A stretch of DNA of 64,000 nucleotides from the human T2T-CHM13v2.0 reference genome, Homo sapiens: the NCBI RefSeq assembly GCF_009914755.1, contig NC_060933.1. One strand, written 5' to 3'. Position 1 is the stretch's first letter, and each line of letters starts with the position of its first letter. Below are positions 41,364 through 64,000 of this stretch, in pieces. Made by a program: the position numbers and the translations under genes. The notes below the pieces were generated by a model. That model ran no database searches. It worked only from the letters and a program-made list of their open reading frames with translations, and was not told the origin of the DNA.

Positions 41364-41608
41364 TTTTTATTTATTTATTTATTTAGTTAGTTATTTTATT
41401 ATTATTATACTTTAAGTTTTAGGGTACATGTGCACATTGTGCAGGTTACTTACATACATATACATGTGCCATGCTGGTGTGCTGCACCCACTAACTCGTC
41501 ATCTAGCATTAGGTATATCTCCCACTGCTATCCCTCCCCCCTCCCCCCACCCCACAACAGTCCCCAGAGTGTGATGTTCCCCTTCCTGTGTCCATGTGAT
41601 CTCATTGT

Positions 41609-44600
41609 TCAATTCCCACCTATGAGTGAGAATATGTGGTGTTTGGTTTTTTGTTCTTGCGATAGTTTACTGAGAATGATGATTTCCAATTTCATCCATG
41701 TCCCTACAAAGGACATGAACTCATCCTTTCTTATGGCTGCATAGTATTCCATGGTGTATATGTGCCACATTTTCTTAATCCAGTCTATCATTGTTGGACA
41801 TTTTGGTTGGTTCCAAGTCTTTGCTATTGTGAATAATGCCGCAATAAACATACGTGTGCATGTGTCCTTATAGCAGCATGATTTATAGTCCTTTGGGTAT
41901 ATACCCAGTAATGGGATGGCTGGGTCAAATGGTATTTCTAGTTCTAGATCCCTGAGGAATTGCCACACTGACTTCCACAATGGTTGGACTAGTTTACAGT
42001 CCCACCAACAGTGTAAAAGTGTTCCTATTTCTCCACATCCTCTCCAGCACCTGTTGTTTCCTGACTTTTTAATGATTGCCATTCTAACTGGTGTGAGATG
42101 GTATCACATTGTGGTTTTGATTTGCATTTCTCTGATGGCCAGTGATGGTGAGCATTTTTTCATGTGTTTTTTGGCTGCATAAATGTCTTCTTTTGAGAAG
42201 TGTCTGTTCATGTCCTTGGCCCACTTTTTGATGGGGTTGTTTGTTTTTTTTCTTGTAAATTTGTTTGAGTTCATTGTAGATTCTGGATATTAGCCCTTTG
42301 TCAGATGAGTAGGTTGTGAAAATTTTCTCCCATTTTGTAGGTTGCCTGTTCACTCTGATGGTAGTTTCTTTTGCTGTGCAGAAGCTCTTTAGTTTAATTA
42401 GATCCCATTTGTCAATTTTGTCTTTTGTTGCCATTGCTTTTGGTGTTTTAGACATGAAGTCCTTGCCCATGCCTATGTCCTGAATGGTACTGCCTAGGTT
42501 TTCTTCTAGGGTTTTTATGGTTTTAGGTCTAACATTTAAGTCTTTAATCCATCTTGAATTGATTTTTGTATAAGGTGTAAGGAAGAGGATCCAGTTTCAG
42601 CTTTCTACGTATGGCTAGCCAGTTTTCCCAGCACCGTTTATTAAATAGGGAATCCTTTCCCCATTGTTTGTTTTTCTCAGGTTTGTCAAAGATCAGATAG
42701 TTGTAGATATGCGGCGTTATTTCTGAGGGCTCTGTTCTGTTCCATTGATCTATATCTCTGTTTTGGTACCAGTACCATGCTGTTTTGGTTACTGTAGCCT
42801 TGTAGTATAGTTTGAAGTCAGGTAGCATGATGCCTCCAGCTTTGTTCTTTTGGCTTAGGATTGACTTGGCGACGCGGGCTCTTTTTTGGTTCCATATGAA
42901 CTTTAAAGTAGTTTTTTCCAATTCTGTGAAGAAAGGCATTGGTAGCTTGATGGGGATGGCATTGAATCTGTAAATTACCTTGGGCAGTATAGCCATTTTC
43001 ACGATAATGATTCTTCCTACCCATGAGCATGGAATGTTCTTCCATTTGTTTGTATCCTCTTTTATTTCCTTGAGCAGAGGTTTGTAGTTCTCCTTGAAGA
43101 GGTCCTTCACATCCCTTGTAAGTTGGATTCCTAGGTATTTTATTCTCTTTGAAGCAATTGTGAATGGGAGTTCACTCATGATTTGGCTCTCTGTCTGTTG
43201 TTGGTGTATAAGAATGCTTGTGATTTTTGTACATTGATTTTGTATCCTGAGACTTTGCTGAAGTTGCTTATCAGCTTAAGGAGATTTTGGGCTGAGACAA
43301 TGGGGTTTTCTAGATATACAATCATGTCATCTGCAAACAGGGACAATTTGACTTCCTCTTTTCCTAATTGAATACCCTTTATTTCCTTCTCCTGCCTAAT
43401 TGCCCTGGCCAGAACTTCCAACACTATGTTGAATAGGAGTGGTGAGAGAGGGCATCCCTGTCTTGTGCCAGTTTTCAAAGGGAATGCTTCCAGTTTTTGC
43501 CCATTCAGTATGATATTGGCTGTGGGTTTGTCATAGATAGCTGTTGTTATTTTGAAATATGTCCCATCAATACCTAATTTATTGAGAGTTTTTAGCATGA
43601 AGGGTTGTTGAATTTTGTCAAAGGCCTTTTCTGCATCTATTGAGATAATCATGTGGTTTTTGTCTTTGGCACTGTTTATATGCTGGATTACATTTATTGA
43701 TTTGCGTATATTGAACCAGACTTGCATCCCAGGGATGAAGCCCACTTGATCATGATGGATAAGCTTTTTGATGTGCTGCTGGATTCAAGTTGCCAGTATT
43801 TTATTGAGGATTTTTGCATCAATGTTCATCAAGGATATTGGTCTAAAATTCTCTTTTTTGGTTGTGTCTCTGCCCGGCTTTGGTATCAGAATGATGGTGG
43901 CCTCATAAAATGAGTTAGGGAGGATTCCCTCTTTTTCTATTGATTGGAATAGTTTCAGAAGGAATGGTACCAGTTCCTCCTTGTACCTCTGGTAGAATTC
44001 GGCTGTGAATCCATCTGGTCCTGGACTCTTTTTGGTTGGTAAGCTATTGATTATTGCCACAATTTCAGATCCTGTTATTGGTCTATTCAGAGATTCAACT
44101 TCTTCCTGGTTTAGTCTTCGGAGAGTGTATGTGTCGAGGAATTTATCCATTTCTGCTAGATTTTCTAGTTTATTTGCTTAGAGGTGTTTGTAGTATTCTC
44201 TGATGGTAGCTTGTATTTCTGTGGGATCGGTGGTGATATCCCCTTTATCATTTTTTATTGCATCTATTTGATTCTTCTCTCTTTTTTTCTTTATTAGTCT
44301 TGCTAGTGGTCTATCAATTTTGTTGATCTTTTCAAAAAACCAGCTCCTGGATTCATTAATTTTTTCAAGGGTTTTTTGTGTCTCTATTTCCTTCAGTTCT
44401 GCTCTGATTTTAGTTATTTCTTGCCTTCTGCTAGCTTTTGAATGTGTTTGCTCTTGCTTTTCTAGTTCTTTTAATTGTGATGTTAGGATGTCAATTTTGG
44501 ATCTTTTCTGCTTTCTCTTGTGGGCATTTAGTGCTATAAATTTCCCTCTACACACTGCTTTGAATGTGTCCCAGAGATTCTGGTATGTTGTGTCTTTGTT

Positions 44601-45434
44601 CTCGTTGGTTTCAAAGAACATCTTTATTTCTGCCTTCATTTCGTTATGTACCCAGTAATCATTCAGGAGCAGGTTGTTCAGTTTCCATGTAGTTGAGCGG
44701 TTTTGAGTGAGATTCTTAATCCTGAGTTCTAGTTTGATTGCACTGTGGTCTGAGAGATAGTTTGTTATAATTTCTGTTCTTTTACATTTGCTGAGGAGAA
44801 CTTTACTTTGAAGTATGTGGTCAATTTTGGAATAGGTGTGGTGTGGTGCTGAAAAAAATGTATATTCTGTTGATTTGGGGTGGAGAGTTCTGTAGATGTC
44901 TATTAGGTCCTCTTGGTGCAGAGCTGAGTTCAATTCCTGGGTATCCTTGTTGACTTTCTGTCTCGTTGATCTGTCTAATGTTGACAGTGGGGTGTTAAAG
45001 TCTCCCGTTATTGATGTGTGGGAGTCTAAGTCTCTTTGTAGGTCACTCAGGACTTCCTTTATGAATCTGGGTGCTCCTGTATTGGGTGCATATATATTTA
45101 GGATAGTTAGCTCTTCTTGTTGAATTGATCCCTTTACCATTATATAATGGCCTTCTTTGTCTCTTTTGATCTTTGTTGGTTTAAAGTCTGTTTTATCAGA
45201 GACTAGGATTGCAACCCCTGCCTTTTTTTGTTTTCCATTTGCTTGGTAGATCTTCCTCCATCCTTTTATTTTGAGCCTATGTGTGTCTCTGCACGTGAGA
45301 TGGGTTTCCTGAATACAGCACACTGATGGGTCTTGACTCTTTATCCAATTTGCCAGTCTGTGTCTTTTAATTGGAGCATTTAGTCCATTTACACTTAAAG
45401 TTAATATTGTTATGTGTGAATTTGATCCTGTCAT
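41609..45434 (-). pseudogene. L1-A ORF2 (endonuclease/reverse transcriptase), disrupted
   Basis: Fragmented into 418, 121, 189, 211, 128 and 157 aa ORFs. FADD RT motif present. Stops at 44178 and 43785; frameshifts at ~43195, ~42585 and ~42250. Confidence 0.96.
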
Positions 45435-62933: not shown

Positions 62934-62993
62934 GATGTTAGCTGGTGATTTTGCTCGTTAGTTGATACAGTTTCTTCCTAGTCTTGATGGTCT

Positions 62994-64000
62994 TTACATT
63001 TTGGCATGATTTTGCAGTGGCTGGTACTGGTTGTTCCTTTCCATGTTTAGTGCTTCCTTCAGGAGCTCTTGTAAGGCAGGCCTGGTGGTGACAAAAATCT
63101 CTCAGCATTTGCTTGTCTGTATTTTATTTCTCCTTCACTTATGAAGCTTAGTTTGGCTGGATATGAAATTCTGGGTTGAAAATTCTTGTCTTTAAGAATG
63201 TTGAATATTGGCCCCCACTCTCTTCTGGCTTGTAGGGTTTCTGCCGAGAGATCCGCTGTTAGTCTGATGGGCTTCCCTTTGAGGGTAACCCGACCTTTCT
63301 CTCTGGCTGCCGTTAACATTTTTTCCTTCATTTCAACTTTGGTGAATCTGACAATTATGTGTCTTGGAGTTGCTCTTCTCGAGGAGTATCTTTGTGGCGT
63401 TCTCTGTATTTCCTGAATCTGAACATTGGCCTGCCTTGCTAGATTGGGGAAGTTCTCCTGGATAATATCCTTCAGAGTGTTTTCCAACTTGGTTCCATTC
63501 TCCCCATCACTTTCAGGTACACCAATCAGATGTAGATTTGGTCTTTTCACATAGTCCCATATTTCTTGGAGGCTTTGCTCATTTCTTTTTATTCTTTTTT
63601 CTCTAAACTTCCCTTCTCGCTTCATTTCATTCATTTCATCTTCCATTGCTGATACCCTTTCTTCCAGTTGATCGCATCAGCTCCTGAGGCTTCTGCATTC
63701 TTCACATAGTTCTCCAGCCTTGGTTTTCAGCTCCATCAGCTCCTTTAAGCACTTCTCTGTATTGGTTATCCTAGTTATACATTCTTCTAAATTTTTTTCA
63801 AAGTTTTCAACTTCTTTGCCTTTGGTTTGAATGTCCTCCCGTAGCTCAGAGTAATTTGATCGTCTGAAGCCTTCTTCTCTCAGCTTGTCAAAGTCATTCT
63901 CCATCCAGCTTTGTTCCGTTGCTGGTGAGGAACTGTGTTCCTCTGGAGGAGGAGAGGTGCTCTGCTTTTTAGAGTTTCCAGTTTTTCTGTTCTGTTTTTT
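62994..64000 (-). pseudogene. L1-B ORF1, disrupted (TGA at 63677, frameshift at ~63120)
   Basis: ORFs 63677-63904 and 63059-63646 are ORF1p peptides. Confidence 0.95.

What the first reader, a model, noticed from the sequence alone, without database searches (positions are those of the whole stretch)
41364..64000. Two separately inserted L1PA2 copies share the same ORF2-inactivating lesions: trans-mobilised ORF2-dead lineage or long-tract gene conversion
Seen: L1-A and L1-B lie ~17.5 kb apart in different host repeats with unrelated 3' flanks, yet share three ORF2-killing lesions. These are an ORF2 stop at codon 419 (EYYKxL*; tta at 44178-44180 and 61693-61695), a 4-bp deletion (both read ..YTNxRQRAKS* instead of RQTESQIM; ~43195 and ~60710), and a +1 in a T-run (T8 at 42244-42251 and 59760-59767). 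They also share changes I recall as non-consensus: ALHQEDL (44911/62422), KTLEK (~44366/61880), TAIYDK (43543/61058), ORF1 TLKDII (45980/63472), ggacattttgg, catgatggat, cagtaatcatt and ttatcctag. The shared sites span at least 4.4 kb. Each copy also has many private changes (roughly 2% pairwise by eye in one ~660-bp stretch). The ORF1 lesions are all private, so the common ancestor had intact ORF1 and dead ORF2. Inference: either a non-autonomous ORF1-only L1PA2 source was mobilised in trans and produced both neighbours, or one copy was overwritten by multi-kb non-allelic gene conversion soon after insertion. Caveat: the 4-bp deletion and the T-run slip are slippage-prone sites that could recur; the stop and the transversions are less likely to.
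Basis: partly seen in the sequence, partly recalled or inferred. Interest (0 to 1): 0.85.

Follow-up and report, generated by a model that had tools for sequence, protein, structure and literature searches.

The report
Neighbouring L1 copies sharing broken ORF2
Two full-length L1 retrotransposon relics 17.5 kb apart on human chromosome 9 carry the same private mutations, three of which break ORF2, most likely because one copy overwrote the other by gene conversion, a known process between neighbouring repeats.

Summary
L1-A (41364-47419) and L1-B (58905 to about 64915) are full-length, on the minus strand, with unrelated flanks. They share an ORF2 stop at codon 419, a 4-bp deletion at codons 747/748 and a +1 A at codon 1064. 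All ORF1 lesions are private. They also share about 15 substitutions carried by at most 1 of 20 other full-length copies, from 47380 to 41804.

Two marker-pair patterns match only these two copies in the 3.1-Gb genome. There is no dispersed ORF2-dead subfamily.

The lesions are rare to common elsewhere (1.2%, 11%, 4.3%), so triple independent recurrence is excluded.

A and B are only slightly closer to each other than to other copies (2.83% against a 3.48% panel mean). Their differences are unevenly spread, with identical runs of 346, 272 and 265 bp (P about 0.01). One copying event does not predict this.

Another neighbouring L1 pair, on chromosome 1, shows a sharp conversion-like tract carrying a shared ORF2 stop.

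Best reading: non-allelic gene conversion between neighbours (about 0.6). Rival: trans-mobilisation of a dead element landing nearby (about 0.25). Ape orthologues would decide.

The parts
41364..47419 (-). L1-A: full-length L1 of L1PA2 grade. The body is 41394-47419 and the A/T-rich tail is 41364-41393.
   Evidence: It aligns end to end with 18 of the 20 fetched full-length copies. ORF2 residues 1-418 match the human LINE-1 ORF2p chain 8uw3_A with E 3.7e-266. Only a weak 7-bp direct repeat, CTTTCTT, at 41359-41365 and 47426-47432 could serve as a target-site duplication (read).
58905..64000 (-). L1-B: full-length L1 that runs past the window end to about 64915. Its tail is 58905-58911 onwards.
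   Evidence: L031 extends the window. The 13-bp target-site duplication GATGTTATTTTTC lies at 58892-58904 and again just beyond the 5' end, at about 64916-64928 outside the window.
44178..44180 (-). Shared ORF2 stop (TAA) at codon 419 in A. The same stop is at 61693-61695 in B.
   Evidence: Genome-wide, 88 of 7,144 copies with the same 25-base context carry it.
61693..61695 (-). Shared ORF2 stop at codon 419 in B.
43195..43196 (-). Junction of the shared 4-bp deletion in ORF2 codons 747/748 in A. The junction in B is at 60710-60711.
   Evidence: It is a recurrent lesion: 994 deleted against 7,821 intact contexts genome-wide.
42244..42251 (-). T8 run on the + strand, equal to +1 A in ORF2 codon 1064, in A. 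The run in B is at 59760-59767.
   Evidence: Genome-wide there are 383 T8 against 8,463 T7 contexts.
41804..47380 (-). Span of the shared rare substitutions in A: 47380, 47363, 47253, 47229, 47192, 47040, 46746, 46702, 46649, 46278, 45980, 44911, 44658, 44366, 43755, 43543, 41804.
   Evidence: Each state is carried by 0 or 1 of the 19-20 panel copies that cover the site. The exceptions are 47380 and 47363, where A has C, B has T and the panel has G. 41804-A occurs in 39 of 10,550 copies genome-wide.
43200..43546 (-). Longest stretch with no A-B difference (346 bp). The next longest are 42218-42490 (272 bp, holds the T8 run) and 44507-44772 (265 bp, holds marker 44658).
   Evidence: These runs are longer than expected under a single divergence time. 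In the same three stretches, panel pairs with no difference number 0 of 190, 0 of 190 and 1 of 190.

Best explanation
A and B were inserted independently by target-primed reverse transcription. They lie in the same orientation with 11.5 kb of unrelated DNA between them. One of them then accumulated private changes in place, including the three ORF2 lesions. Non-allelic (ectopic) gene conversion between the two neighbours, in one very long tract or more probably several, copied those changes into the other while the two were still nearly identical. Each copy then went on decaying on its own, with about 60 private events each. A few shorter, later exchanges left stretches with no differences.

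Shown here: independent insertion sites, a private shared haplotype, absence of any third copy, uneven spacing of the A-B differences, and a clear conversion-like tract in another neighbouring L1 pair.

Inferred: the direction, number and dates of the tracts, and that the lesions arose after insertion.
For: 1. The flanks are unrelated and B has its own 13-bp target-site duplication, so this is not a segmental duplication.
2. The haplotype is private. The marker pairs 44658+44911 and 43543+43755 each match only A and B in 3.1 Gb. The single markers are rare: 110 places for 44911-A, 101 places for 43755-T, and 39 of 10,550 for 41804-A.
3. A and B share 10 states carried by no other of the 22 aligned copies. 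The mean over 231 pairs is 0.76.
4. A+B are sister in the tree, with support 0.994.
5. The divergence is not uniform. Identical runs of 346, 272 and 265 bp stand against a mean spacing of 31.7 bp. P(longest >= 346) is 0.002 to 0.011, and P(third longest >= 265) is at most 0.00025, under uniform, regional and site-weighted rates. Among the 229 other pairs of real copies that differ at 150 sites or more, none has so large a sum of its three longest runs.
6. The ratio of shared to private events varies by region: 10/38, 1/21, 5/25 and 2/40 (chi-square P = 0.07).
7. A precedent in the same genome is the pair L054/L055 on C1, 33 kb apart on the same strand. They differ at 5 of 893 sites in one block and then at 3-7%. 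A 32-base cluster of changes occurs only in these two copies. A shared ORF2 stop at codon 244 falls by position inside the block.
8. In the lists of rare-variant carriers, pairs under 100 kb apart number 9, 7, 3 and 2. My arithmetic for uniform scatter gives about 0.3, 0.3, 0.05 and 0.25.
9. Passages in PMC6598467 and PMC8230782 report elevated conversion between Alu copies within about 10 kb.
Against: 1. The shared markers reach from 40 bp inside the 5' end (47380) to 410 bp from the 3' end (41804). This is about 5.6 of 6.0 kb. It is far longer than usual conversion tracts: the abstract of PMC11761487, seen only in the listing, gives 100-1,000 bp for allelic events, and the tract in the C1 pair is at least 0.9 kb.
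2. I found no sharp tract boundary in A/B. The regional heterogeneity is only P = 0.07. A window test of A-B divergence against panel diversity was not significant (my chi-square on the numbers, about 19.5 on 14 degrees of freedom).
3. Unrelated pairs also sometimes show identical runs of 300-430 bp (3 of 230 pairs reach 346 bp or more).
4. The last 430 bp and the 3' third do not place A with B in substitution-only trees. That fits an unconverted end but is also within noise.
5. No outgroup genome was available, so no pre-conversion state has been seen.
6. The panel was chosen by likeness to A at 44100-44260, which biases frequencies in that stretch.
Confidence: 0.6

Rival explanations
1. Trans-mobilisation. 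One copy is the retrotransposed daughter of the other, or both are daughters of a lost source. The parent had an intact ORF1 but an ORF2 already broken by the three lesions. Its RNA was reverse-transcribed by ORF2p from another L1 and landed 17.5 kb away, by chance or through an undescribed local bias. Later short conversions between the two explain the identical stretches.
For: 1. Retrotransposition copies the whole element at once. It also gives the daughter its own tail and target-site duplication, as seen for B.
2. The shared markers cover almost the full length, including sites 40 and 57 bp from the 5' end.
3. The ancestral sequence had no ORF1 lesion.
4. Of 11 rare shared coding substitutions, 6 are synonymous. 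The private changes are 15 of 59 and 14 of 49 synonymous.
5. Passages in PMC5860796 describe L1 RNAs that can move only by trans-complementation, so the process exists.
Against: 1. No other copy of the lineage exists in this genome.
2. Landing within 17.5 kb of the parent by chance has odds of about 35 kb in 3.1 Gb, or 1e-5 per event (my arithmetic). I know of no report that L1 hops locally (recalled, not searched).
3. Cis preference makes mobilisation of ORF2-dead L1 RNA rare (passages in PMC5860796; Wei et al. 2001 was seen only as a reference entry and is not held).
4. A single copying event predicts one divergence time, which the spacing of the differences does not fit. This model therefore needs gene conversion as well, and conversion alone can explain the sharing.
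5. The other neighbouring pair that shares an ORF2 stop is explained by a conversion-like tract.
Confidence: 0.25
2. Nothing special. The shared substitutions are ordinary sub-lineage diagnostics, and the three lesions arose independently in two unrelated or merely sibling copies.
For: Two of the three lesions are recurrent: the 4-bp deletion at 11% and the T-run slip at 4.3%. The stop also recurs, at 88 of 7,144. It occurs on a different background in L043 and L049, which are 2 of the 416 copies carrying the younger-type marker 44522-T.
Against: The marker pairs are found in A and B only. The chance that the second copy also carries all three lesions, from the measured frequencies, is about 0.012 x 0.11 x 0.043, or 6e-5 (my arithmetic). 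This leaves out 41804-A (0.37%) and the other private markers.
Confidence: 0.03
3. Segmental duplication or assembly artefact. The two copies are one element duplicated at the DNA level, or by mis-assembly.
For: Both copies are in the same orientation, close together, and of the same length.
Against: Only the L1 body aligns and the flanks do not. B has its own target-site duplication, and the tails differ. The copies differ at 170 substitutions and several indels. No other L1PA-like fragment lies in the window.
Confidence: 0.02

Closest known systems
Non-allelic (ectopic) gene conversion between neighbouring transposable-element copies. It is best documented for Alu. For L1 it is known from repair of a chromosomal break using other LINE copies (Tremblay et al. 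2000, seen only as cited in PMC1920257).
   Same: Independent insertion sites. Private variants of one copy appear in a nearby copy. The effect depends on proximity: passages in PMC6598467 and PMC8230782 report elevated rates within about 10 kb. Dead sequence is spread without any need for coding capacity.
   Different: The shared tract or tracts here cover about 5.6 kb of a 6-kb element, with no sharp boundary found. The exchange is old, since the copies have diverged by 2.8% afterwards. The partners are 17.5 kb apart.
Non-autonomous L1 derivatives and defective L1 RNAs moved in trans. Examples are HAL1 ('half L1', ORF1 only; passage in PMC5753468) and spliced L1 copies that need trans-complementation (passages in PMC5860796).
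   Same: The inferred ancestor has ORF1 without lesions and ORF2 broken. A daughter would have its own tail and target-site duplication.
   Different: HAL1 families have many dispersed copies and lack ORF2 sequence. Here there are only two copies, side by side, and ORF2 is present but broken by point lesions.
Ordinary L1 source-offspring lineages (active source elements and their progeny).
   Same: Whole-element sharing of a handful of source-specific substitutions.
   Different: Progeny of an active source are dispersed, and the source has an intact ORF2. Here the shared state includes three ORF2-breaking lesions, and the only relatives are neighbours.

Membership tests
LINE-1 element inserted by target-primed reverse transcription | ORF1 and ORF2 homologous to L1 proteins, with a full-length 5' UTR to 3' UTR architecture | tested here: met
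   ORF2 residues 1-418 of A match chain 8uw3_A with E 3.7e-266. A aligns end to end with 18 of 20 fetched full-length copies. Both ORFs can be traced in A and B.
LINE-1 element inserted by target-primed reverse transcription | A-rich tail and a target-site duplication flanking each copy | tested here: met
   B has a 13-bp duplication on both sides and an A-rich tail. A has an A/T-rich tail but only a weak 7-bp repeat, offset 6 bp from the 5' end. The feature is therefore met for B and inconclusive for A.
   No RepeatMasker, Dfam or Repbase library was available. A and B lack the states at 45392, 45374 and 45349 that L043 and L049 carry; at two of the three (45392, 45374) that state gives the residue of the solved L1HS ORF2p, while at 45349 A itself differs from that protein. 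They differ from the panel majority at about 130 of 6,030 columns. 'L1PA2 grade' is an estimate.
Non-allelic gene conversion | Two independent loci share derived variants that are absent from other family members | tested here: met
Non-allelic gene conversion | Mosaic structure: tracts with a different depth of A-B divergence and definable boundaries | tested here: inconclusive
   Identical runs are over-long (P about 0.002-0.011 for the longest run). The shared-to-private ratio varies by region (P = 0.07). No sharp boundary of the kind seen in the C1 pair was found.
Non-allelic gene conversion | The orthologous locus in an outgroup keeps the pre-conversion sequence | not testable with these tools
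   Only this one human assembly could be searched.
Trans-mobilised, ORF2-dead (HAL1-like) L1 lineage | The common ancestor has ORF2 broken and ORF1 unbroken | tested here: met
   Three ORF2 lesions are shared and no ORF1 lesion is shared.
Trans-mobilised, ORF2-dead (HAL1-like) L1 lineage | Several dispersed copies carry the same lesions and markers | tested here: not met
   Only A and B match the two marker-pair patterns. L052 and L053 share 41804+T8 but none of the other markers.
Trans-mobilised, ORF2-dead (HAL1-like) L1 lineage | One divergence time along the whole element, the 3' end included | tested here: inconclusive
   The spacing of differences is uneven. The last 400 bp show 19 differences in 400 sites, against 0.045 for A to the panel, and A and B are not sister there. 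All of this is within a few-fold of noise.
Segmental duplication | Similarity continues into the flanks | tested here: not met
   Alignment stops at the L1 ends. Direct repeats of 200 bases or more in 36000-64000 are the L1 bodies and one 244-base family of three copies, which I take to be an Alu.

The most novel reading that the evidence does not exclude
A full-length L1 whose ORF2 was already dead was copied through its RNA by another element's ORF2p, and the copy was inserted only 17.5 kb from the parent. If such local re-insertion reflects capture of nascent, chromatin-tethered L1 RNA at nearby nicks, defective L1s would have a local route of spread that escapes cis preference. Part of the genome-wide excess of related neighbouring L1 pairs would then be retrotransposition rather than conversion.
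Probability: 0.2. Interest if true: 0.65.

Novelty: new member of a known kind. Interest (0 to 1): 0.32.

Why it matters
If the pair was homogenised by conversion, it is a clean example of exchange between neighbouring L1s that covers nearly the whole element. It shows that inactivating lesions, and apparent 'lineages', can be spread between L1 relics at the DNA level. This matters for dating L1 copies by divergence and for inferring source-offspring relations from shared variants.

The rare-variant lists suggest that such related neighbours are common. That could be measured genome-wide.

If instead the pair is parent and daughter, it would be a rare natural case of a full-length ORF2-dead L1 moved in trans. 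The outcome is directly testable with ape genomes.

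Tried and rejected
1. A third member of the lineage. The pattern 41804+T8 also matched C10:63460993 (L052) and C23:75566250 (L053). Both lack all the other markers and the stop and 4-bp deletion. Rejected as relatives.

2. L043 (C12) and L049 (C2). They share 20 exclusive states and the codon-419 stop, lie on different chromosomes, and each has its own target-site duplication. This looked like a dispersed dead lineage. However, their shared state 44522-T is carried by 416 copies, of which only these 2 have the stop. At two of the three such sites in the ORF2 N-terminus (45392, 45374) their state gives the residue of the solved L1HS ORF2p. These are younger-subfamily diagnostics with a recurrent stop. 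I did not test whether the two are true sisters.

3. Mutation spectrum. The shared events (4 transitions, 6 transversions among states with 0 panel carriers) do not differ from the private ones (27:23 and 17:21).

4. Excess of ORF2 lesions on the shared branch. There are 3 among about 20 shared events, against 7 among 124 private events. This is not significant by my estimate.

5. Subfamily markers. A and B agree at 29 of 40 balanced panel polymorphisms. Most of the 11 disagreements are C/T or G/A changes at sites likely to be hypermutable. No clean mosaic emerged.

6. Unconverted ends. The first and last 400 bp show no A-B closeness. But the first 400 bp hold shared markers and give an A+B clade with support 0.84. 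The 3' end result is within noise.

7. The C4 pair 62636347/62655756 (L056, L057) shares 41804-A but is only 92% alike. There is no special relation.

8. The 222-bp inverted segment of L054 is no closer to L055 than to other copies.

Wei et al. 2001 is not held. The pangenome L1 preprint PMC13192797 mentions gene conversion only in passing. The search for 'gene conversion' + L1PA2 + LINE-1 found 14 papers, 13 listed, and none is on this locus by title or abstract start. No supplementary files were opened.

Full report
WHAT IS THERE

The window holds two full-length L1 elements on the minus strand.
- L1-A has its body at 41394-47419 and an A/T-rich tail from 41364.
- L1-B starts at 58905 and runs past the window end. 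With 3 kb more of the chromosome (L031) it ends at about 64915.

The two align over 6,028 columns at 96.78% (158 mismatches, 13 gap openings). Nothing outside the L1 body aligns. B is flanked by a 13-bp target-site duplication, GATGTTATTTTTC. A has only a weak 7-bp repeat, and its tail is a TAAA-like tract, not a recognisable transduction. No other young L1 fragment lies in the window. The N-terminal 418 residues of A's ORF2 match the solved human ORF2p with E 3.7e-266 and end at a stop where that protein continues.

CHECKING THE SHARED LESIONS

I fetched two panels from the same genome.
- 29 other L1 copies around ORF2 codon 419. These were chosen by likeness to A at 44100-44260, so frequencies inside that stretch are biased towards A.
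- The full length of 20 of them.

I projected each copy on the alignment. A and B share exactly three ORF2-breaking lesions: a TAA stop at codon 419, a 4-bp deletion at codons 747/748, and a +1 A at codon 1064. Every other lesion is private.
- A: 2 ORF1 stops, and 3 ORF2-breaking lesions.
- B: 1 ORF1 stop, 2 ORF1 frameshifts, and 4 ORF2-breaking lesions.

The common ancestral sequence had a broken ORF2 and no ORF1 lesion.

HOW RARE ARE THE SHARED STATES?

Exact-context counts over the whole 3.1-Gb genome give:
- the stop in 88 of 7,144 copies, 1.2%;
- the 4-bp deletion in 994 against 7,821 intact, 11%;
- the extra base in 383 against 8,463, 4.3%.

The deletion is also in 4 of the 20 full-length panel copies, which lack the other markers.

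A and B also share substitutions that none or one of the 20 panel copies carry: 47253, 47229, 47192, 47040, 46746, 46702, 46649, 46278, 45980, 44911, 44658, 44366, 43755, 43543 and 41804. At 47380 and 47363 the panel has G, A has C and B has T. 41804-A is carried by 39 of 10,550 copies.

With indels collapsed and only states with at most one panel carrier counted, there are 18 shared and 124 private events. Three of the 18 are sites where both copies differ from the panel but not identically in that alignment. Among the 231 pairs of the 22 aligned copies, A/B share 10 exclusive substitution states against a mean of 0.76. The maximum-likelihood tree joins them with support 0.994. Independent recurrence of everything is excluded.

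IS THERE A DISPERSED LINEAGE?

No.
- A pattern requiring both 44658-T and 44911-A matches only A and B in the genome. So does one requiring 43543-C and 43755-T.
- The single markers occur in 110 and 101 places, and no place other than A and B appears in both lists (100 listed in each).
- A pattern requiring 41804-A and the T8 run matches A, B and two more copies. Those two lack every other marker and both other lesions.

HOW DEEP AND HOW UNIFORM IS THE RELATIONSHIP?

A and B are only a little closer to each other than to unrelated copies.
- A-B substitution divergence: 2.83%.
- A to its nearest panel copy: 3.22%.
- B to its nearest panel copy: 2.89%.
- Mean over panel pairs: 3.48%.

The shared branch is short and the event is old.

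The shared markers reach from 40 bp inside the 5' end to 410 bp from the 3' end, but their density varies. Shared against private events by region are as follows (chi-square P = 0.07):
- 47413-45981: 10 against 38.
- 45980-44912: 1 against 21.
- 44911-43543: 5 against 25.
- 43542-41394: 2 against 40.

A+B are sister in the 5' third (0.99), the middle third (0.94) and the first 400 bp (0.84). They are not sister in the 3' third or the last 430 bp when only substitutions count. The 3' third still holds the deletion, the T8 run and 41804-A.

The spacing of the 190 A-B differences is uneven. Runs without any difference are 346, 272, 265, 203 and 194 bp, against a mean spacing of 31.7 bp. In simulations with uniform, regionally smoothed or site-weighted rates, the longest run is reached in 0.2-1.1% of trials. 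The third longest is reached in at most 0.025%. In the same three stretches, panel pairs with no difference number 0 of 190, 0 of 190 and 1 of 190. Among the 230 other real pairs, 3 have a run of 346 bp or more. Only the very similar pair L043/L049 (87 differences) has a larger sum of its three longest runs.

A single copying event predicts one divergence time. These data mildly but consistently speak for several.

CALIBRATION FROM OTHER NEIGHBOURS

The place lists for rare variants hold many other close pairs. By my count:
- 9 pairs under 100 kb apart among 100 listed places;
- 7 among 100;
- 3 among 39;
- 2 among 88.

Uniform scatter would give about 0.3, 0.3, 0.05 and 0.25. That arithmetic is mine and is not corrected for L1 clustering or segmental duplications.

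The chromosome-1 pair consists of L054, a 5'-inverted truncated copy, and L055, a full-length copy, 33 kb apart on the same strand.
- A 32-base cluster of eight changes is found nowhere else in the genome.
- They differ at 5 of 893 sites from L054's truncation point to the equivalent of 44158, and then at 128 of 2,690 sites.
- They share an ORF2 stop at codon 244, which by position falls inside the near-identical block. They also share the recurrent 4-bp deletion, which lies outside it.

This is a sharp tract of the kind gene conversion leaves. It shows a shared ORF2 lesion between neighbours arising without retrotransposition. The chromosome-4 pair showed no special relation.

WEIGHING THE EXPLANATIONS

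Both surviving models need the lesions to have been in one ancestral sequence.

Gene conversion needs two independent full-length insertions 11.5 kb apart and then exchange over nearly the whole element. That extent is its weak point. Its strengths are as follows:
- it is indifferent to coding capacity;
- reviews report it as favoured by proximity for Alu (passages in PMC6598467 and PMC8230782; L1 break repair by conversion is cited in PMC1920257);
- it is seen in the chromosome-1 pair;
- it fits the uneven divergence.

Trans-mobilisation explains the whole-element extent, and B's own tail and duplication, in one step. It has three costs:
- it must overcome cis preference (passages in PMC5860796);
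- it must land within 17.5 kb of its parent, about 1e-5 per event by my arithmetic, and I recall no evidence for local hopping of L1;
- it still needs later conversion to explain the identical runs.

I put conversion at about 0.6, trans-mobilisation at about 0.25, and the rest on mixtures and unknowns.

LIMITS

- The panel is small and was chosen by likeness to A near codon 419.
- No outgroup species, repeat library or second human haplotype was available.
- Subfamily labels are therefore estimates, and no pre-event state has been seen.
- Regions and runs were partly defined after looking at the data.
- Papers were read only as passages found by term search, or as listing abstracts where stated. 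No supplements were opened.

Noticed in passing
window 43195-43196 and 60710-60711; genome-wide: The identical 4-bp deletion in ORF2 codons 747/748 sits in a TGTY-type triple repeat on the + strand. It is present in 994 L1 copies against 7,821 with the intact context (11%). It is in 4 of 20 unrelated full-length panel copies and in both members of the chromosome-1 pair. This is a strikingly frequent identical frameshift. I did not test whether it arises during reverse transcription or by decay in place.
   Followed up: partly
place lists (whole genome): L1 copies that carry the same rare variant are often neighbours. There are 9, 7, 2 and 3 pairs under 100 kb apart, where uniform scatter would give well under 1. 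Some lie in regions that may be segmental duplications (for example C11:48.4-48.8 Mb and C15:15.1 Mb). Only two pairs were examined.
   Followed up: partly
L054 (G000:C1:179654400-179661900) and L055 (G000:C1:179687500-179695000): An older L1 pair 33 kb apart with a sharp near-identical block: 5 differences in 893 bp, then 3-7%. The block starts at the truncation and inversion point of L054. It holds a private cluster of eight substitutions within about 30 bp, and by position a shared ORF2 stop at codon 244.
   Followed up: yes
L043 (G000:C12:55061993-55069353) and L049 (G000:C2:172800987-172808347): Two younger, L1HS-like full-length copies on different chromosomes, each with its own target-site duplication. 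They are 98.4% alike and both carry the codon-419 stop. They are the only 2 of 416 copies with the marker 44522-T that carry it. L049 shows no ORF1 lesion. I did not test whether they are true sisters, which would make them a candidate dispersed dead lineage.
   Followed up: partly
window 47380 and 47363 (B: 64878 and 64861, beyond the window): At two sites 17 bp apart near the 5' end, the panel has G, A has C and B has T at both. This looks like a shared change followed by a second change in one copy, twice over.
   Followed up: no
window 47029-47528: The RefSeq 'enhancer' feature in the hub's table lies on the 5' UTR of L1-A and its upstream flank.
   Followed up: no
window 46223 (A) and the aligned base in B: A's private ORF1 stop at codon 98 falls on a site where B also differs from the panel, but with another base. 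The site is a CpG in the panel majority.
   Followed up: no
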